A DNA stretch of 64,000 bases from Minisyncoccota bacterium (GTDB taxonomy: Bacteria; Patescibacteriota; Minisyncoccia; Phycocordibacterales; JBAYLF01): the NCBI GenBank assembly GCA_041664205.1, contig JBAYLF010000005.1:7063-71062 (forward strand), in the 5' to 3' direction. This document shows positions 21,767-28,177 of the stretch, piece by piece. Each line of letters opens with the position of its first letter. Within the stretch, counting starts at the first letter, position 1. The notes below the pieces were generated by a model, which searched no databases, was not told the origin of the DNA, and was given only the letters and a program-made list of their open reading frames with translations. Made by a program: the position numbers and the translations under genes.

Positions 21767-21795
21767 TTGAGAACTTTTCAAGGATTAGTGAAGAT

Positions 21796-21960
21796 TAGTG
21801 AATAAGATAGTTTAGCGCTGCGCCTACATAGTAAGGCCAAATAGCTATAGCTAAAACTCCTTGCCAGAAGGATAGTTTTAAAAATCCTATAGTAAATAGC
21901 CATGCTCCTAACCACAAACCTCCTGAAAATACGTTATTTTCGATTTTTATTTTTTCCATA
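21796..21960 (-). CDS. Small two-TM hypothetical protein (54 aa)
   Basis: Minus-strand ORF MEKIKIENNVFSGGLWLGAWLFTIGFLKLSFWQGVLAIAIWPYYVGAALNYLIH. Below the 60-aa ORF-track cutoff. Confidence 0.3.
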
Positions 21961-22029: not shown

Positions 22030-23046
22030 TTATTTTAACGAAAAGATTGGCACACTTATTCCTTTTTCATTATGCTGTTTTTGCTTTTCAAAATAATCTT
22101 TAAACTTCGAACTAGCATCACTTAATCTACAAACGCCATGCGAAGACATGAACTTTGGATCTGTGTGCCTGAATTTTTTATGAGTTATCTCATTTTCAGT
22201 AGATGAGAATAACATTTTCTTTTTTGAAAGAATCTTTAGAATAGCTTTGATTTCTGGATTTTTTGTTTTTAAAAGCTTCTTAATAACATGCTGATCATTT
22301 TCAGAAAAGTCAGCCAGATTTATTGTGCCTTCTTTAATAGCGAGCTTTAATGCATGAGAAAATAATTTATATCTTGAGACTGCTTCAAAACCACCCCAAT
22401 GATCTTTTTGTAATTTCAAAAAGTTTGTGGCAAAAATATATGCGGAATTTTTATCTTTAAATATCATTTCATTATTATTATTCATAAGCGATTTGAATAA
22501 TAATTTAGCAACAGGAATAGGTAATTCTCTTAAGGCATAATCAACTCTATCTGCACACAGATCAGGCGGATCTTTCTCAAGTAGCGAGAAATTATGATAA
22601 TTAGATATTATTCTTGAACTGGAGTCGTATTTTTCAAGGATATTTTTTATTTCTTCAGAATTGATTATTTTTTTATGATGATTGTCCTGATATGATTCAC
22701 CGCAAGCTTCGTTGCCGATAACCCAATCTATAATATGAGAAAAAGCGGTATGCGATACATCATGAAGCAAACCCGCAGCTTGTTCCTCAAGAGATCCTCC
22801 AAGTGTTTTTATTAATATCATAACACCCACAGAATGTTCATATCTGCTAAAACTTTTCAGATGATAATATTTGTCTGGAATTCCAAACTGACTTATTTTT
22901 TTTAGACGTTGAACAATTTTCGATTCCAATAATTCAATAAGTAATGGCTCGGTAATTATGTGAGTCCCGTATATTCTATCTTTGATAATAACTTTTTTTT
23001 GCATATACGTTTTGATATTAGTAGGGTAATGTTGTTTAAATTCCAT
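22030..23046 (-). CDS. HD-domain phosphohydrolase of the SAMHD1/dGTPase-like (dNTP triphosphohydrolase) type, 338 aa
   Basis: DRIYGTHIITEPLLIELLESKIVQRLKKISQ...SRYEHSVGV...LLHDVSHTAFSH...ADRVDYALRE parallels the SAMHD1-family pattern DPIHGxI...FQRLRxIxQLG...RFEHSLGV...HDxGHxPFSH...DxxDYxxRD. Confidence 0.6.
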   Translation of the reverse strand: MEFKQHYPTNIKTYMQKKVIIKDRIYGTHIITEPLLIELLESKIVQRLKKISQFGIPDKYYHLKSFSRYEHSVGVMILIKTLGGSLEEQAAGLLHDVSHTAFSHIIDWVIGNEACGESYQDNHHKKIINSEEIKNILEKYDSSSRIISNYHNFSLLEKDPPDLCADRVDYALRELPIPVAKLLFKSLMNNNNEMIFKDKNSAYIFATNFLKLQKDHWGGFEAVSRYKLFSHALKLAIKEGTINLADFSENDQHVIKKLLKTKNPEIKAILKILSKKKMLFSSTENEITHKKFRHTDPKFMSSHGVCRLSDASSKFKDYFEKQKQHNEKGISVPIFSLK

Positions 23047-23302
23047 TTATATCACCGTCCAGAAACCATTTATCTTTAACTCGGACTAATTTGATTGTCT
23101 CTCCAGATGAAGTTCTACAAATGCCGTATTCGTCAGTTTTTTCAACCAGCTGAAAACAGCCTCTGAAATTGTAATAGTTTGTAAATGAACTATGAGCAAT
23201 TTGTAAGGTGTGTATTTGATAGATTCCAGCAGTAAGAAATACAACAGCTAAAACGATAATAAAGCCAATAGTTTTGCCTGTATAAAATTTCCTTAAGTCC
23301 AT
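23036..23302 (-). CDS. Small membrane-anchored hypothetical protein (88 aa). Overlaps the HD gene start by 11 nt.
   Basis: N-terminal TM IGFIIVLAVVFLTAGIY. AGGAG-like SD and an extended -10 (TTTTATAATAT) upstream on the minus strand. Confidence 0.4.
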   Translation of the reverse strand: MDLRKFYTGKTIGFIIVLAVVFLTAGIYQIHTLQIAHSSFTNYYNFRGCFQLVEKTDEYGICRTSSGETIKLVRVKDKWFLDGDINGI

Positions 23303-23370: not shown

Positions 23371-23892
23371 TTATTTCACTTTTTTGATGCTTTTCGGAAT
23401 GTTATTAAATAGGGTTTTTTCGATCTCTGGATTGGGCCATAAAACTATTTCCAACGGATCAAATTTGTCATCAATATCTAGGATTAGTTTTCTGATTTCA
23501 CCAGAAAGAGTTCTGATATCCTTCGCATCAGCTTTCATTTGTAATCTAGCCATAATATCAGTTAGTAATTTTTTGTCTTTAATCCAAAGAGATATTTCAA
23601 TCGACATCTGATTTAACTCCTCATAAAAATTTATAAGCTCACTTTTATTCAAATAAGTTGACTCATTACCTCTATATTTTATCCATCTTGCAAACAAACG
23701 AGCAATTGTCTCTGCTTTCTGTCGTTGTAATTGTTGGAATTTATACTCTTCTAATTTTCTATCGTATTCATGTTGAATTGATTTTTCCAACCTCGCTGAT
23801 ACCCACTTAGTTAATAGCCATTGAACCAACCCAAGACAAAAGGCAATAATTAAGCTACTTGTTAAAATTTGAATAAATGTAAGTTGAATCAT
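23371..23892 (-). CDS. Single-pass membrane protein with a helical soluble domain (173 aa); partner of the SIR2-like gene
   Basis: TM LTSSLIIAFCLGLVQWLL followed by a charged helical region. 22 nt downstream of the SIR2-like gene on the same strand. Confidence 0.5.
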   Translation of the reverse strand: MIQLTFIQILTSSLIIAFCLGLVQWLLTKWVSARLEKSIQHEYDRKLEEYKFQQLQRQKAETIARLFARWIKYRGNESTYLNKSELINFYEELNQMSIEISLWIKDKKLLTDIMARLQMKADAKDIRTLSGEIRKLILDIDDKFDPLEIVLWPNPEIEKTLFNNIPKSIKKVK

Positions 23893-23914: not shown

Positions 23915-24814
23915 TTAAAAACATTTTTCAATTAGTTCGATACATGTAGAATATACTTTTATCTCTGTTTCTGGCTTGCCATATTCTTCACTTAGAAATT
24001 TAAGTATATCAGCTTTTTTAGATGTATCTTTAATTGTTACATGAATTTCAGATATTTGATTTTCGAAGTTAATTTTACCAAGATTGACTTGTAAACCTCC
24101 TCCTAAACCAAGAAAATACAATTTTATATTTGAAACATAATTGATTTTAAAGATGGAATGGTTTTTGCTATCATGACAAGAGACCATATTTATATATTCT
24201 CTATTATCACTTTTTATGGTATCTGACTGTGTGTATATTTGGGAGATATCATATAGTTCTTCTTTATATGAAATATGACCATGAGGATGAATAGATTGAA
24301 CATTTACTCCGGATAAGTAACTTAGTCTTGGTTTGTGTGTAAGGCGTCTCTCTTTGTCTGATAAATGTCCAAACTTAAGAAAATTTCTATTTAAAACATT
24401 ATCATAATTATAATTTATAAATGCAATCCGGTGTTCCAAACTGTTTTGTGTGTTATGCAGAATTTTCTCGTTTAGCACTTTTATCCAACCATTATTATTA
24501 TCTTTATATCTCTCATTTAAGATATCCTCCATTATTAAAAAGATATGATCTTCTATTTTATCACCATCGGAATGATGTTTAACCGATTCTTTTGCTATAC
24601 ATTCATCAATAGTGTTATATTCTTTATTTTCACCAATTTTATCTATCCAAGCCAAAATTTCTTTATGATATTTATATCGGACTTCTTTATCACTATTAAT
24701 TTTATCTTTGATTAACTGATCCAGTTCTTTCCATGTAGGTAAACCATACTCTACAGAAGCTCCCGCACCCAAAATTAAGAGATGTTCAATTTTGTTATTA
24801 AGTTCAAATCTCAT
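23915..24814 (-). CDS. SIR2-like (SIR2_2 family) putative NAD+-hydrolase domain protein, 299 aa
   Basis: N-terminal LLILGAGASVEYGLPTWKEL matches the SIR2_2 hallmark FLGAGxSxxxGxPxWxxL. INYNYDNVLN resembles the TTNYDxLLE motif. IHPHGHIS resembles the catalytic KxHG(S) motif. Starts 38 nt downstream of the tRNA 3' end. Confidence 0.6.
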   Translation of the reverse strand: MRFELNNKIEHLLILGAGASVEYGLPTWKELDQLIKDKINSDKEVRYKYHKEILAWIDKIGENKEYNTIDECIAKESVKHHSDGDKIEDHIFLIMEDILNERYKDNNNGWIKVLNEKILHNTQNSLEHRIAFINYNYDNVLNRNFLKFGHLSDKERRLTHKPRLSYLSGVNVQSIHPHGHISYKEELYDISQIYTQSDTIKSDNREYINMVSCHDSKNHSIFKINYVSNIKLYFLGLGGGLQVNLGKINFENQISEIHVTIKDTSKKADILKFLSEEYGKPETEIKVYSTCIELIEKCF

Positions 24815-24852
24815 TTTATTTTATTAGCTTAACTCTTTAGTTATTCGAATTT

Positions 24853-24925
24853 AGCTCAACTCGGCTGCGGGTCAGGGACTCGAACCCCAATTAATCGCTC
24901 CAGAGGCGATCGTCCTACCATTAGA
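24853..24925 (-). tRNA. tRNA-Gln (anticodon CUG). CC of the CCA end is encoded, the A is not.
   Basis: Manual cloverleaf: acceptor TGCGGGT/ACCCGCA (U1-A72, G73 discriminator); D arm GTCT-AATGGTA-GGAC; anticodon stem ATCGC/GCGAT with loop CU-CUG-GA; T loop TTCGAGT. Confidence 0.7.
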
Positions 24926-25062
24926 CGAACCCGCAATATACTTAAAATACTTTAAATTCGGTAATTATTCAAGTAAAACCATTTGTGAGATTTTTTTAAT
25001 TAAAACTCTAATATGATAATATATTTAAAAGGTATCTTATAAATTACTAATTAAAAATTATT

Positions 25063-25704
25063 ATGGAAAAATCATTAGATTCAGAATTAAATCATAAAGA
25101 AGGAGAAAATGAAGAAGAAGTTATTAACTTAGAAGAAAATACTAAAATTTTGGAAGAAATAAAAAGAGGGGATTTTGATCATGTGAACGAATTAACTTCT
25201 CTTGGTAATGATAATGAAATAGCTGAACTTCTTTCAAAACACGAAGGCCCTCTTTATCTTGGAGGTCTTAAATCTATCACTGATGGGCAAGCAGAACTTT
25301 TATCAAAACATGAGGAAGGTCTTTATGAAAGAAAACTTCTTCCACGCCAAGGCGGACTTGATCTTTCTGGGCTTGAATTTATAAACGACATGCAAGCAGA
25401 GTTTTTATCAAAACATGAAGGCGATCTTGATCTTTCAGGACTTAAATCTATTACCGACGAACAGGCGCAGTCTTTTTCAAATCGCAGAGGTGGTTGTCTT
25501 TACCTTGACGGGCTTGATTCTATTACTGATGAGCAAGCCAAGTCTTTAGGATCAAGATCTAATTATTCAGTTTCTCTTAAAGGTCTTGCTTCTATTAATG
25601 ATGAACAAGCAGAGCATCTTTCAAAAATTACTGACCTGACTGTCTCAAAAGAAGTTATTGAACTTATTGTTAGTAAAAAAAATAAAAAACCTCGGGAAAT
25701 ATAA
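25063..25704 (+). CDS. Acidic tandem-repeat protein (213 aa) with about 22-aa repeats L.GL.SITDEQAE.LSKHEG
   Basis: Six or more degenerate 22-aa repeats, mirrored by 66-nt DNA repeats at about 25225-25640. Confidence 0.55.
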   Translation: MEKSLDSELNHKEGENEEEVINLEENTKILEEIKRGDFDHVNELTSLGNDNEIAELLSKHEGPLYLGGLKSITDGQAELLSKHEEGLYERKLLPRQGGLDLSGLEFINDMQAEFLSKHEGDLDLSGLKSITDEQAQSFSNRRGGCLYLDGLDSITDEQAKSLGSRSNYSVSLKGLASINDEQAEHLSKITDLTVSKEVIELIVSKKNKKPREI

Positions 25705-25722
25705 AATAATTTTTAATCAACA

Positions 25723-25757
25723 AAAACCTCCGCAGTTTTGCGGAGGTTTTTGTTTTA
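25723..25757. terminator. Bidirectional terminator AAAACCTCCGCA-gtttt-TGCGGAGGTTTTTGTTTT
   Basis: 12-bp perfect stem flanked by A/T tracts, between convergent genes. Confidence 0.7.
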
Positions 25758-25777
25758 TAAGTATTTTTAGCGGTCGA

Positions 25778-28177
25778 TTATTTTGAATTTACTCGCATGC
25801 AATAGAAACTTCTCCAAACGAATACAAGTGCGACTGCAAATAGGAGCGTGCCTACATAAGGAGCGATTGAACGGAATCCTTCAGAGATTGTTATTTCCAT
25901 CGCCAAAAGTCCGAATAGCGTGGTGAATTTAATGATAGGGTTTAGCGCGACGGAAGTTGTGTCTTTGAATGGATCTCCGACAGTGTCGCCGACTACTGTG
26001 GCATTGTGCAAAGGAGTTCCTTTTTCTTTTAGATCTACTTCAACTACTTTCTTTGCATTGTCCCATGCGCCTCCTGCGTTTGCCATAAAGATCGCTTGGA
26101 ATAATCCGAAGAATGCGATGCTCATGAGATAGCTTACGAAGAGCGCGATCGGCTGTGCGTTAGTTGCAGAAGGTGCTGACCAAAAAGCGAACGCGAGGGT
26201 AAATGTAAATAGCGCGACGAAAATATTTATCATTCCTTTTTGTGCGTATTGAGTGCAGATCTTTACAACTTCTTTTGATTTTTTTATCGATTCTTCCTGA
26301 TCCTGCTTTTCATCAAGGCTGATATTTTTTCTGATGTATTCAACTGCTCTGTATGCTCCCGCGGTTACTGCTTGGATAGATGCACCAGAGAACCAATATA
26401 TAACTGCACCGCCCAAGAGCCATCCGAAGATTGTGAACGGATTTAGAAGGTTCAAGATAGTTTCTGGTTCTACTCCAAGTTTATTTTTTATCAAGATGAT
26501 CAAAGAGAAGATCATTGTTGTTGTTCCTGCGACGGCTGTGCCGATGAGCACTGGCTTTGCTGTGGCTTTGAAAGTGTTTCCTGCACCGTCGTTTGCTTCA
26601 AGATAATATTTTGCCTTTTCAAAGTCTGGTTTGAAGCCGAATTCTTTTTCGATGTCATATGTTGCTTTGCTGATATTGTTTTCTATGCCAGATAATTCGT
26701 AGACGCTTTGTGCGTTGTCTGTTATTGGTCCATAGCTATCAACGGCGATTGTAACTGGTCCCATACTTAAGAATCCGAAAGCGATCAATCCGAAGGCGAA
26801 GACAACAGGGTAGATCATGAAAGTCGCGAGTCCGAAAGTGCTTGCGTAGAATGCTGTAAACATAAGGCCGAAAAATACTAAACCGTTCCAGAATGCGCTG
26901 AAGTTACCAGCGACTAATCCGGAAAGAATTGTAAGAGATGCTCCGCCTTCACGGGAGGCCTCAACTACTTCTTTAACATGTTTTGATTTTGGACTTGTGA
27001 AAATCTTTGTTACTTCTGGAATAATTGCTGCTCCTAATGTTCCACAGCTTATTATTATTGAGAGCACAAACCAAAGATTATTTGGTAAGGCTCCAAGAAG
27101 CATTTTGCTGACGATGAAAGTCACAATGATAGAAAAGATTGAGGTAAGCCAAACGAGATTTGTTAGAGGCTTTTCAAAATCAAGGTCGTCAGTTTTTCCA
27201 TAAAGAACTTTGCTTAATCCATTGTTCAGCCAGAATGATGAAATAGATGTGATGACCATGAGTATTCTCATAACGAAAATCCATGTAATTAATTCTGCTT
27301 GGTATTGTGGAATTACTGCTAGAACGATGAAGCTGATAAGCGCTACAGCTGTTACTCCGTAAGTTTCAAAACCGTCTGCTGTAGGTCCGACGCTGTCTCC
27401 TGCGTTGTCTCCTGTGCAGTCTGCAATAACTCCTGGGTTTCTTGGATCGTCCTCTTTAATCTTCAAGAAAATTTTCATTAAGTCTGATCCGATGTCGGCG
27501 ATCTTTGTGAAGATGCCTCCGCAGATTCTAAGGACGCTCGCGCCTAATGATTCACCGATAGCAAAACCTATGAAGCATGCGCCGGCAAATTCTTTTGGAA
27601 TGTAATTAAGAATGAAAAGCATCAAGAAGAGTTCAACAGAAACAAGAAGAACTCCGATAGCCATTCCTGAACGTAGGGGAATGTTTAGGAGCTTCAAAGG
27701 TTTTCTTTCAAGTGATGAAAATGCCATTCTGCTGTTTGCGAGAGTATTTACTCTGATGCCGAACCAAGCGACTCCGTATGAGCCGAGAATTCCGATAGTT
27801 GTCCAAGACAATATCAAAGCTACTCCTTTTAGTCCGACTGATTGGAGGTATCCAAAATAGAAGCCAATGAATATTGCAATCAAAACAAAAAGTGAAAGGA
27901 TAAGTTTACCTTGCTGAATAAGATAAGTTTTGCATGTCTCAAAAATAATTTTGGAAACATCGCCCATAGATTCGTGAGTTGGCATTTTTTTAACCTTGAG
28001 GTATTGGTAGACGCCAAAGATAATTCCCAAGATACACACTACAAAACCGATCTTAAATAGGTTTTGCTGGCCACTAGATAGGTCAGGTATCTTTAAGTCG
28101 GCTTCGCTCGCGAGAGCGGTATTAAAGGAGGTTAATAAAAGAAAGAGTGTGAAAAACAATTTTGTTATGATTTTCAT
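25778..28177 (-). CDS. hppA: Membrane-bound proton-translocating pyrophosphatase (H+-PPase)
   Basis: ANAGGAWDNAKK and DCTGDNAGDSVGP signatures. 799 aa polytopic. Confidence 0.9.
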   Translation of the reverse strand: MKIITKLFFTLFLLLTSFNTALASEADLKIPDLSSGQQNLFKIGFVVCILGIIFGVYQYLKVKKMPTHESMGDVSKIIFETCKTYLIQQGKLILSLFVLIAIFIGFYFGYLQSVGLKGVALILSWTTIGILGSYGVAWFGIRVNTLANSRMAFSSLERKPLKLLNIPLRSGMAIGVLLVSVELFLMLFILNYIPKEFAGACFIGFAIGESLGASVLRICGGIFTKIADIGSDLMKIFLKIKEDDPRNPGVIADCTGDNAGDSVGPTADGFETYGVTAVALISFIVLAVIPQYQAELITWIFVMRILMVITSISSFWLNNGLSKVLYGKTDDLDFEKPLTNLVWLTSIFSIIVTFIVSKMLLGALPNNLWFVLSIIISCGTLGAAIIPEVTKIFTSPKSKHVKEVVEASREGGASLTILSGLVAGNFSAFWNGLVFFGLMFTAFYASTFGLATFMIYPVVFAFGLIAFGFLSMGPVTIAVDSYGPITDNAQSVYELSGIENNISKATYDIEKEFGFKPDFEKAKYYLEANDGAGNTFKATAKPVLIGTAVAGTTTMIFSLIILIKNKLGVEPETILNLLNPFTIFGWLLGGAVIYWFSGASIQAVTAGAYRAVEYIRKNISLDEKQDQEESIKKSKEVVKICTQYAQKGMINIFVALFTFTLAFAFWSAPSATNAQPIALFVSYLMSIAFFGLFQAIFMANAGGAWDNAKKVVEVDLKEKGTPLHNATVVGDTVGDPFKDTTSVALNPIIKFTTLFGLLAMEITISEGFRSIAPYVGTLLFAVALVFVWRSFYCMRVNSK

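What the first reader, a model, noticed from the sequence alone, without database searches (positions are those of the whole stretch)
22030..23302. Short SAMHD1-like HD dNTPase homolog translationally coupled to an 88-aa membrane protein
The HD protein shows the dGTPase/SAMHD1 motif series but is only 338 aa; housekeeping Dgt enzymes are larger. Its start overlaps by 11 nt the stop of a small TM protein that has its own SD/-10. Defensive dGTPases that deplete dNTPs are known. A membrane-protein pairing is not known to me.
Basis: partly seen in the sequence, partly recalled or inferred. Interest (0 to 1): 0.55.

Follow-up and report, generated by a model that had tools for sequence, protein, structure and literature searches.

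The report
Ordinary small HD nucleotide hydrolase gene
The gene encodes a compact SAMHD1/EF1143-like HD enzyme from a family common in ultra-small bacteria and archaea, and in those relatives it usually sits beside DNA-replication and nucleotide-metabolism genes; its position next to a tiny membrane protein is peculiar to this genome, so there is no sign of a new defence system.

Summary
Both ORFs exist as described on the minus strand: HD 22030-23046 and an 88-aa single-pass membrane protein 23036-23302. The 11-nt overlap holds only if the longest HD ORF is used. NCBI's call, 19 aligned homologs, the seven closest loci and the structure model all favour a start at Met15 (23004), which leaves a 31-nt gap. 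The genome does not use Shine-Dalgarno sites, so the SD-like motifs say nothing.

The HD protein belongs to a large, uncharacterised family of about 320 aa found in Patescibacteria and DPANN archaea. It keeps the SAMHD1/EF1143 catalytic residues and fold (TM 0.63-0.69 to EF1143). It does not match Dgt-type or defensive dGTPase models.

Neighbours of homologs are housekeeping genes: NUDIX, tRNA synthetases, GTPases and, in five loci, replicative polymerase genes (DP1-HD-DP2, HD-DnaE).

The pairing is not conserved in either direction. None of 85 HD loci carries a relative of the 88-aa protein, and none of 80 loci of the 88-aa family carries the HD.

Best reading: a dNTP-pool enzyme of the known EF1143/SAMHD1 type, next to an unrelated small envelope protein. 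Low interest. Side note: two genes upstream lies a stand-alone defence-type SIR2-like gene that sits directly after tRNA-Gln in 4 of 4 close loci.

The parts
22030..23004 (-). HD-domain protein, most likely CDS (324 aa, start Met15 at 23004). A member of the ~320-aa Patescibacteria/DPANN family of EF1143/SAMHD1-like HD phosphohydrolases.
   Evidence: ORF; Pfam HD; identical 324-aa NCBI protein P0001; family alignment and invariant residues; PDB profile hits to 2HEK, EF1143 and SAMHD1; AF2 pLDDT 89 and Foldseek TMq 0.63-0.69 to EF1143.
23005..23046 (-). Optional 14-codon N-terminal extension of the HD ORF (Met1 at 23046). Using it creates the 11-nt overlap with the upstream ORF. It is probably not translated.
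   Evidence: Not conserved in 19 homologs. The ORFs of the 7 closest loci start at the Met15 column. pLDDT is below 50 for residues 1-13. Prodigal-type calls on other assemblies do use it (338 aa), so it is not excluded.
23036..23302 (-). 88-aa single-pass membrane protein: an N-terminal TM helix followed by a ~50-aa outward-facing domain with two conserved cysteines (AHSxFxNY..FRGC...C...KWYLDGD). It is a real gene of a small Patescibacteria family and is not a conserved partner of the HD gene.
   Evidence: ORF; hydropathy; 54 representative homologs in the exhaustive search; alignment with conserved H37, Y43, C49, C62, W79; 259 metagenome loci, with 0 of the 80 fetched carrying an HD relative; varied neighbours.
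21795..21959 (-). 54-aa hydrophobic ORF downstream of the HD gene (context only).
   Evidence: ORF; called as a gene on two other assemblies; no homolog in any HD-family locus.
23371..23892 (-). 173-aa protein with an N-terminal TM segment, upstream of the 88-aa gene (context only, function unknown).
   Evidence: ORF; hydropathy; no Pfam, NCBIfam or PADLOC assignment; absent from all other loci examined.
23915..24814 (-). 299-aa stand-alone SIR2-like protein of the anti-phage type (context, independent of the HD gene).
   Evidence: PADLOC SIR2 E 3.9e-6; profile hit to the KomC SIR2 NADase with GAGxS..LPxW and NYD..HG motifs; AF2 pLDDT 92, with all top-50 Foldseek hits being defence SIR2 domains; ~124 homologs, none next to an HD relative in 5 loci.
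24863..24935 (-). tRNA-Gln(CTG), immediately 5' of the SIR2-like gene on the same strand.
   Evidence: ARAGORN; Rfam tRNA at 56 bits.

Best explanation
The HD ORF is an ordinary member of a large, so far uncharacterised family of ~320-aa HD phosphohydrolases found in Patescibacteria (CPR bacteria) and DPANN archaea. The family is a trimmed version of the EF1143/SAMHD1 (COG1078-type) dNTP triphosphohydrolase.

Inferred mechanism: a metal centre held by H71, H95, D96 and D166 binds the dNTP. R68, Q53, Y170 and E174 position the triphosphate and deoxyribose. H104, D107 and H124 act as the acid/base group. The P-alpha-O5' bond is cut, giving a deoxynucleoside plus triphosphate.

Inferred role: control of the dNTP pool during replication in organisms that live largely on salvaged nucleotides. 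It is not phage defence.

The 88-aa gene upstream encodes an unrelated small envelope protein with an outward-facing, probably disulfide-bonded domain. The two genes are neighbours only in this genome. They are probably co-transcribed but separated by 31 nt, because the HD most likely starts at Met15.

Shown here: family membership, conserved catalytic residues, the fold, the taxonomic spread, the neighbourhoods of relatives, and the non-conservation of the pairing. Inferred: the substrate, the reaction and the physiological role.
For: Sequence: Pfam HD. The family profile hits 2HEK (E 2e-15, nearly full length), EF1143 (2e-14), 2Q14 and SAMHD1 (~1e-10). The residues aligned to the EF1143/SAMHD1 catalytic set are invariant in 20 family members. 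EF1143 residue roles are taken from PMC3190883.

Structure: AF2 pLDDT 89.2. The top Foldseek hits are EF1143 (TMq 0.63-0.69), then SAMHD1.

Distribution: more than 3,500 hits, all ~316-336 aa. 399 species genomes matched, including many DPANN archaea. 22 of 23 archaeal sequences fall in one clade of a neighbour-joining tree.

Context of relatives: NUDIX as an immediate neighbour 9 times, AlaRS 5, PheRS-beta 3, GTPases 7, dCTP deaminase 1. DP1-HD-DP2 occurs in L074 and L091, DP1-HD in L081, NT5C-HD-DP2 in L089, and HD-DnaE in L022.

Not defence: no PADLOC hit for the HD. The dGTPase equivalog scores 16.8 bits against a cut-off of 494. There are no viral homologs. Neighbours give only generic or NUDIX PADLOC hits.

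Pairing: 0 of 85 HD loci have a relative of the 88-aa, 173-aa, 54-aa or SIR2-like proteins. 0 of 80 loci of the 88-aa family have the HD, and 50 of those hold at least 1.1 kb downstream. The locus of the first homolog found also lacks an HD.

Start codon.
Against: No member of this family has been assayed, and the closest solved relative (2HEK) is itself functionally uncharacterised (PMC3190883).

Some residues differ from EF1143. The gating Ser52 is an invariant Pro57 here, and His61 is Phe/Tyr66. The protein is ~120 aa shorter, so regulation, oligomeric state or even substrate may differ.

The family is patchy rather than universal in these phyla; the count is pattern-limited.

In this genome the HD lies two genes from a defence-type SIR2-like gene that follows a tRNA, and SIR2-dGTPase fusions are known elsewhere (PMC13519002).

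The Met1 start, and with it the overlap, cannot be excluded; two other assemblies aa.
Confidence: 0.7

Rival explanations
1. One reading: a two-gene anti-phage module. The 88-aa membrane protein senses infection or envelope damage and controls a dNTP-depleting HD effector, and the two are translationally coupled.
For: The genes are on the same strand and overlap by 11 nt, or lie 31 nt apart. dNTP-depleting dGTPases are established defence effectors (PMC13519002). A defence-type SIR2-like gene lies nearby.
Against: The pairing is absent from 85 HD-family loci and from 80 loci of the 88-aa family. No PADLOC match for either protein. Relatives of the HD sit among replication, translation and nucleotide genes. 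The conserved domain of the 88-aa protein faces outward with two conserved cysteines, so little of it could contact a cytoplasmic enzyme. The likely start at Met15 removes the overlap.
Confidence: 0.04
2. The whole minus-strand run from tRNA-Gln through the SIR2-like, 173-aa TM and 88-aa TM genes to the HD is one genome-specific defence islet. It would combine an NADase and a dNTPase effector.
For: The SIR2-like protein resembles anti-phage SIR2 domains. It lies at a tRNA gene. Intergenic gaps are short (22, 68 and 31 nt). G+C is slightly lower here (0.30 against ~0.345). SIR2-dGTPase fusions exist elsewhere (PMC13519002). Distant SIR2-like homologs sit among restriction-modification, helicase and transposase genes.
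Against: In 5 other loci the SIR2-like gene stands alone, with different flanks and no relative of the HD, the 88-aa or the 173-aa protein. HD relatives never carry it. There is no integrase and no att-like repeat of the tRNA. The G+C value lies within the window's normal range.
Confidence: 0.06
3. A housekeeping HD enzyme, but not a dNTP triphosphohydrolase. It could be, for example, a hydrolase for NTPs or for modified or damaged nucleotides, a nucleotidase, or a nucleic-acid phosphodiesterase, using the same metal centre.
For: The family and its nearest solved relative 2HEK are unassayed. Positions that recognise deoxyribose in EF1143 differ (His61 to Phe/Tyr66, Ser52 to Pro57). There are family-specific invariant motifs (HWGG 216-219, KKFR 290-293). 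Recurrent NUDIX, ASCH/DUF3850, HAD and NT5C neighbours fit nucleotide sanitation as well as they fit pool control.
Against: The full EF1143/SAMHD1 catalytic set, including the acid/base residues specific to the triphosphohydrolase reaction, is invariant. Whole-length fold matches are to dNTPases. Operons with replicative polymerase genes point to dNTPs.
Confidence: 0.2

Closest known systems
EF1143 of Enterococcus faecalis (PDB 2O6I, 3IRH, 4LRL), a tetrameric dNTP triphosphohydrolase activated by dGTP
   Same: Best structural match (TMq 0.63-0.69, E 2.5e-10) and a profile hit at E 2e-14. The two share the metal ligands, R63/R68, Q48/Q53, the acid/base pair E122/D107, the DxxDY motif and D191/E174.
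   Different: The window protein is ~120 aa shorter, and identity is only 15-16%. The gating Ser52 is an invariant Pro. His61 is Phe/Tyr. Allosteric dGTP sites and tetramer contacts were not demonstrated here.
O67745/Aq_1910 of Aquifex aeolicus (PDB 2HEK, 371 aa)
   Same: Best sequence-profile match, nearly full length (profile positions 7-284, E 2e-15). Similarly compact.
   Different: 2HEK has no assigned function (PMC3190883). It is a tetramer with GDP at its interface sites; whether the CPR/DPANN family does the same is unknown.
Human SAMHD1 catalytic core
   Same: Same HD fold (TMq ~0.55). The catalytic motif series aligns in the N-terminal half.
   Different: The window protein has no SAM domain and is ~150 aa shorter than the SAMHD1 catalytic core. 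The allosteric-site residues are not evidently conserved. SAMHD1 is eukaryotic and acts as an antiviral restriction factor; no such context is seen here.
Dgt-type dGTPases, including the defensive bacterial dGTPases (Tal et al. 2022, from my own knowledge; Vdg octamers, PMC13519002)
   Same: The same superfamily and the same proposed chemistry (dNTP to deoxynucleoside plus triphosphate).
   Different: The window protein fails the curated models: NCBIfam NF002329 scores 16.8 bits against a cut-off of 494, and no PADLOC model matches at E 0.01 or better. The family has no defence-island context.

Membership tests
EF1143/SAMHD1-type (COG1078-like) HD dNTP triphosphohydrolases | HD domain with the H...HD...D metal-binding tetrad | tested here: met
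   Pfam PF01966 at 35 bits against a cut-off of 22. H71, H95, D96 and D166 are invariant in 20 family members and align to the ligands of 2HEK, EF1143 and SAMHD1.
EF1143/SAMHD1-type (COG1078-like) HD dNTP triphosphohydrolases | Extended catalytic series: QxG, RxxH, HDxxHxxxSHxxD/E, a downstream His, and DRxDYxxRD/E | tested here: met
   Q53, R68, H99, H104, D107, D166, R167, Y170 and E174 are invariant and H124 is nearly invariant. They are aligned residue by residue. EF1143 residue roles come from PMC3190883.
EF1143/SAMHD1-type (COG1078-like) HD dNTP triphosphohydrolases | Whole-length fold similarity to solved dNTPases | tested here: met
   Model pLDDT 89.2. Foldseek gives EF1143 at TMq 0.63-0.69 and SAMHD1 at ~0.55, both at probability 1.00.
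EF1143/SAMHD1-type (COG1078-like) HD dNTP triphosphohydrolases | Hydrolysis of dNTP to deoxynucleoside plus triphosphate | not testable with these tools
   Needs an enzyme assay. Only contextual support exists: operons with PolD or DnaE, NT5C, dCTP deaminase and NUDIX.
EF1143/SAMHD1-type (COG1078-like) HD dNTP triphosphohydrolases | Tetramer with nucleotide-binding allosteric sites at the subunit interfaces | tested here: inconclusive
   The protein is ~120 aa shorter than EF1143, and the gating Ser52 position is an invariant Pro57. No multimer modelling was possible.
Dgt-type and defensive dGTPases | Score above the curated dGTPase model thresholds (NCBIfam) or a match to PADLOC dGTPase models | tested here: not met
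   NF002329 at 16.8 bits against a cut-off of 494. No PADLOC family at E 0.01 or better.
Dgt-type and defensive dGTPases | Recurrent location among defence genes or on mobile elements | tested here: not met
   The 160 immediate neighbours of 80 homologs are dominated by housekeeping families. PADLOC hits among them are only NUDIX-like PDC-S07 (6) and generic enzymes. No viral contig carries the family.
Conserved two-gene system (HD plus small membrane partner) | Co-occurrence of the two gene families in other genomes | tested here: not met
   0 of 85 HD loci hold a relative of the 88-aa protein. 0 of 80 loci of the 88-aa family hold an HD relative. Only 3 of 82 HD homologs have any small TM ORF close upstream on the same strand, and none of those is related to the 88-aa protein.
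Defence-type SIR2 (SIR2_2-like NADase), for the neighbouring 299-aa gene only | GAGxS Rossmann motif, NYD and HG catalytic motifs, and a SIR2 fold | tested here: met
   Invariant G16-A-G-x-S20, N136-Y-D138 and (H178)-G179. KomC profile hit at E 2.6e-4. PADLOC SIR2 at E 3.9e-6. All top-50 Foldseek hits are defence SIR2 domains, but with weak TM scores of 0.3-0.47.

The most novel reading that the evidence does not exclude
In this one genome the run from tRNA-Gln through the SIR2-like gene, the 173-aa and 88-aa TM genes to the HD gene acts as a single defence islet. In it, membrane proteins would couple envelope-level sensing of infection to two metabolite-depleting effectors, an NADase and a minimal dNTPase recruited from a housekeeping family.
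Probability: 0.04. Interest if true: 0.65.

Novelty: new member of a known kind. Interest (0 to 1): 0.2.

Why it matters
As flagged, the finding matters little. It is not a new defence system, and the membrane-protein pairing is an accident of gene order.

The residual value lies in the family. A compact EF1143/SAMHD1-like enzyme is shared by the two great groups of ultra-small, salvage-dependent symbionts (CPR bacteria and DPANN archaea). It is sometimes encoded between the two subunit genes of the replicative polymerase.

An assay of one member would show how these organisms balance dNTP pools. It would also show what the minimal, possibly unregulated, core of a SAMHD1-type enzyme can do.

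Tried and rejected
1. Defence annotation. PADLOC, PHROGs and NCBIfam scans of the HD, the 88-aa, 173-aa, 54-aa and 213-aa proteins gave nothing for the HD or the 88-aa protein.

2. 'The 88-aa protein is an orphan.' The word-indexed search found only one homolog. The exhaustive search overturned this with 54 representatives.

3. Viral origin. Scans of viral contigs for the HD, SIR2-like and 88-aa families found no relatives.

4. Integrated island at tRNA-Gln. There is no direct repeat of the tRNA 3' end in 20.5-25.2 kb and no integrase. G+C of 0.30 is within the window's range.

5. Shine-Dalgarno evidence for the start codon. A GGTGAT lies before Met1 and an AGGAGTGAT before the 88-aa ORF. These were rejected as evidence because the genome as a whole shows no SD signal.

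6. Promoter and terminator scans gave counts at chance level. Rfam found only the tRNA.

7. A first attempt to scan metagenomes with the broad 23-sequence alignment failed because it had no conserved stretch. The scan was repeated with 8 closer sequences.

8. A literature search for a described CPR/DPANN HD dNTPase found nothing.
Full report
**The observation**

The window comes from a Candidatus Paceibacterota (Patescibacteria) metagenome-assembled genome. Identical proteins are annotated under that name.

On the minus strand the ORF list gives a 338-aa ORF at 22030..23046 and an 88-aa ORF at 23036..23302. The DNA shows the shared 11 nt, ATGGAATTTAA. The 338-aa product has a Pfam HD domain (E 1.9e-8). 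The 88-aa product has one strong hydrophobic segment at residues ~12-30. The described objects therefore exist.

**Start codon and 'coupling'**

The overlap exists only if the HD protein starts at Met1. Four lines of evidence favour Met15 instead:
- NCBI's annotation of the identical protein is 324 aa and begins MQKKVIIKD, which is Met15 with its ATG at 23004.
- In an alignment with 19 homologs of 45-66% identity, most begin within a few residues of that column. Three carry short extensions that are not conserved.
- In the seven closest loci the ORF cannot be extended upstream of that column.
- The AlphaFold model has pLDDT below 50 for residues 1-13.

The SD-like GGTGAT before Met1 and the AGGAGTGAT before the 88-aa ORF carry no weight. 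46 genes of the window have a median anti-SD duplex energy of -0.55 kcal/mol, weaker than random positions at -2.5. Their leaders are simply A/T-rich, as is the leader before Met15. Promoter-like hits equal the shuffled expectation, and no terminator-like site was found.

The likely arrangement is two genes on the same strand, 31 nt apart. They are plausibly co-transcribed, but translational coupling is not demonstrated. Two other assemblies call the 338-aa form, so Met1 is not excluded.

**What the HD protein is**

*Sequence.* A single-sequence search of solved structures finds 2HEK, 2Q14, EF1143 and many SAMHD1 entries at E around 1e-6 to 1e-7. A profile of the family raises this to 2HEK at E 2e-15 over nearly the full length, EF1143 at 2e-14, 2Q14 at 4e-12 and SAMHD1 at ~1e-10.

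*Structure.* The model is confident (pLDDT 89.2, pTM 0.87). Its best structural matches are EF1143 (TMq 0.63-0.69) and then SAMHD1 (~0.55).

*Catalytic residues.* The residues that align to the EF1143/SAMHD1 catalytic set are invariant or nearly so in the family:
- Q53, R68 and H71;
- H95-D96, H99 and H104;
- D107, at the position of EF1143 Glu122;
- H124;
- D166-R167, Y170 and E174.

The roles of the EF1143 residues are taken from PMC3190883. The differences are an invariant Pro57 where EF1143 has the gating Ser52, Phe/Tyr66 where it has His61, about 120 fewer residues, and family-specific invariant motifs (HWGG, KKFR).

*Exclusions.* The protein does not belong to the Dgt branch. The NCBIfam dGTPase equivalog scores 16.8 bits against a cut-off of 494. 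No PADLOC defence model, including those for dGTPases, matches at E 0.01 or better.

Shortness is not anomalous in itself. That NCBIfam model is 342 positions long, and 2HEK has 371 residues.

**Distribution of the family**

The large protein collection returns more than 3,500 hits. The best 120 are all 314-336 aa and, where named, are Patescibacteria 'HD domain-containing protein'.

A scan of one genome per species found 399 genomes with a relative. This used only two strict peptide patterns, so it is a lower bound. The best 80 include Saccharimonadia, Roizman-, Levy-, Shapiro- and Woesebacteria and Parcubacteria. Unexpectedly, they also include many DPANN archaea: Woese-, Pace-, Aenigmat-, Micr-, Parv- and Nanoarchaeota, at 41-48% identity.

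In a quick neighbour-joining tree, 22 of 23 archaeal sequences fall in one 24-tip clade. This is approximate and has no support values. It looks like mostly vertical descent after few inter-domain transfers, not the scattering typical of defence genes. No viral contig carries the family.

**Neighbourhoods of relatives**

Five close homologs (60-66% identity) have different upstream genes: NUDIX, a glycosyltransferase, an MliC-domain protein, DUF3850/ASCH and an ArsP permease.

I took the ORF immediately upstream and the ORF immediately downstream of 80 homologs and scanned all 160 against Pfam. The recurrent families were:
- NUDIX (6 upstream, 3 downstream);
- alanyl-tRNA synthetase (5);
- PheRS beta (3);
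- GTPases (7);
- PolD subunits (3 upstream, 3 downstream);
- single cases of DnaE, dCTP deaminase, FtsZ and penicillin-binding proteins.

Direct checks confirmed five polymerase-linked arrangements:
- DP1-HD-DP2 in L074 and L091;
- DP1-HD in L081;
- a deoxy-5'-nucleotidase (NT5C)-HD-DP2 in L089;
- HD-DnaE in L022.

PADLOC scans of the same 160 neighbours gave only NUDIX-like PDC-S07 (6) and generic enzymes. This is a replication and nucleotide-metabolism context, not an island context.

**The 88-aa protein and the pairing**

The word-indexed search suggested a near-orphan with one homolog, P0122. The locus of that homolog has no HD gene. The exhaustive search corrected this to 54 representative homologs of 69-581 aa.

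The shared architecture is a TM helix followed by AHSxFxNYxxFRGC...C...KWYLDGD, with H37, Y43, C62 and W79 invariant and C49 nearly so. Some members carry an N-terminal DUF5808 or extra TM segments. The positive N-terminus and the paired cysteines suggest an outward-facing, disulfide-bonded domain; this is inference. It is a real gene of unknown function.

A metagenome scan found 259 loci. Of the 80 fetched, none encodes a relative of the HD protein, and 50 of them hold at least 1.1 kb downstream. Their neighbours are heterogeneous.

Conversely, none of 85 HD-family loci contains a relative of the 88-aa, 173-aa, 54-aa or SIR2-like proteins. Only 3 of 82 have any small TM ORF close upstream on the same strand. 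The pairing is specific to this genome.

**The local surroundings**

The minus-strand run reads: tRNA-Gln(CTG) at 24863-24935, a 299-aa gene, a 173-aa TM gene, the 88-aa gene, the HD gene and a 54-aa hydrophobic ORF. FtsE, FtsX, CapA and a release-factor gene lie on one side; an H+-pyrophosphatase, a metallophosphatase and a glutamate dehydrogenase lie on the other.

The 299-aa protein is a stand-alone SIR2-like protein of the anti-phage kind. The evidence is:
- PADLOC SIR2 at E 3.9e-6;
- invariant GAGxS, NYD and HG motifs;
- a profile hit to the KomC NADase;
- a confident model (pLDDT 92) whose top 50 structural matches are all defence SIR2 domains, though with weak TM scores of 0.3-0.47.

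It has about 124 homologs, all in Patescibacteria. In three other loci with homologs of 45-51% identity it again lies directly 3' of a tRNA-Gln on the same strand, while both outer flanks differ. Two distant homologs (39-42% identity) instead sit among methyltransferase, NYN, helicase, Cas4-like and transposase genes, without a tRNA. None of these five loci has a relative of the HD, the 88-aa or the 173-aa protein.

The window shows no att-like repeat and no integrase. The local G+C of 0.30 is within the window's range. I therefore treat the SIR2-like gene as an independent accessory gene that happens to lie near the HD gene. SIR2-dGTPase fusions do exist in other lineages (PMC13519002), so I keep a small probability for a local functional link.

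**Mechanism and verdict**

The best-supported reading is a metal-dependent dNTP triphosphohydrolase of the EF1143/SAMHD1 type, in a trimmed form. It would serve dNTP-pool control for replication in salvage-dependent, ultra-small cells.

What is shown: the family assignment, the conserved residues, the fold, the distribution, the context of relatives, and the non-conservation of the pairing. What is inferred: the reaction and the physiological role. Whether allosteric control is lost is open.

Relative to known systems this is a new member of a known kind. Interest in the flagged finding is low. The family itself is uncharacterised, is shared by CPR and DPANN organisms and is sometimes embedded in the PolD operon, so it would be a reasonable target for a simple enzyme assay.

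Noticed in passing
window 23915-24935 (-); also L092:4922-5957, L093:4749-5885, L094:4841-5909: A stand-alone ~300-aa SIR2-like protein of the anti-phage type lies directly 3' of a tRNA-Gln gene on the same strand, with gaps of ~50-180 nt. This holds in the window and in all 3 other loci with homologs of 45-51% identity, while the outer flanks are unrelated. Two distant homologs (L175, L176) lack the tRNA and sit among methyltransferase, helicase, Cas4-like and transposase genes. The family has ~124 members, all in Patescibacteria, with no Pfam model. Whether tRNA-Gln is an insertion hotspot or has a functional link is unexplained.
   Followed up: partly
L074:1875-8094, L091:2388-8456, L081:1565-4109, L089:3429-8479, L022:4034-8195: Homologs of the HD protein are encoded between the small (DP1) and large (DP2) subunit genes of archaeal DNA polymerase D in DPANN genomes. 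One lies after a deoxy-5'-nucleotidase and before DP2. One CPR genome has the homolog directly before DnaE. This is a tight link between the uncharacterised family and the replicative polymerase.
   Followed up: yes
L012-L091 (HD-family loci from species genomes): The ~320-aa HD family is shared by Patescibacteria and many DPANN archaeal lineages at 41-48% identity, and 22 of 23 archaeal sequences form one clade in a rough neighbour-joining tree. This suggests an old or rare inter-domain transfer between the two groups of ultra-small symbionts. I found no paper describing it.
   Followed up: partly
whole window (46 gene starts): The genome shows no Shine-Dalgarno signal. The median anti-SD duplex energy upstream of 46 genes is -0.55 kcal/mol, weaker than at random positions (-2.5). 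Leaders are A/T-rich. SD-based start-codon arguments are unreliable for this organism.
   Followed up: yes
window 23036-23302 (-); L095-L174: The 88-aa protein defines a small, unnamed Patescibacteria family: a TM helix plus a ~50-aa domain, AHSxFxNY..FRGC..C..KWYLDGD, with two conserved cysteines. Some members are fused to DUF5808 or to multi-TM N-termini. The word-indexed search missed nearly all members; the exhaustive search found 54 representatives, and a metagenome scan found 259 loci.
   Followed up: partly
L001:4730-5995 and five other HD-family loci: The NUDIX proteins that recur next to HD homologs (9 of 160 immediate neighbours) match the PADLOC candidate single-gene system PDC-S07 (6 hits, best E 1e-20). 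They probably reflect shared nucleotide-pool housekeeping, but the NUDIX-HD pairing was not examined further.
   Followed up: no
window 25063-25704 (+): A 213-aa acidic protein with no Pfam, NCBIfam or PADLOC match, built of ~6 tandem copies of a ~24-aa motif (L.GL.SITDEQAE.LSKHEG.L.L). It lies divergent from tRNA-Gln.
   Followed up: no
window 25686-25784: Weak, sub-threshold Rfam hits on both strands (BSnc120, rimP leader) lie between the convergent 213-aa gene and the H+-pyrophosphatase gene. This is most simply a bidirectional terminator hairpin.
   Followed up: no
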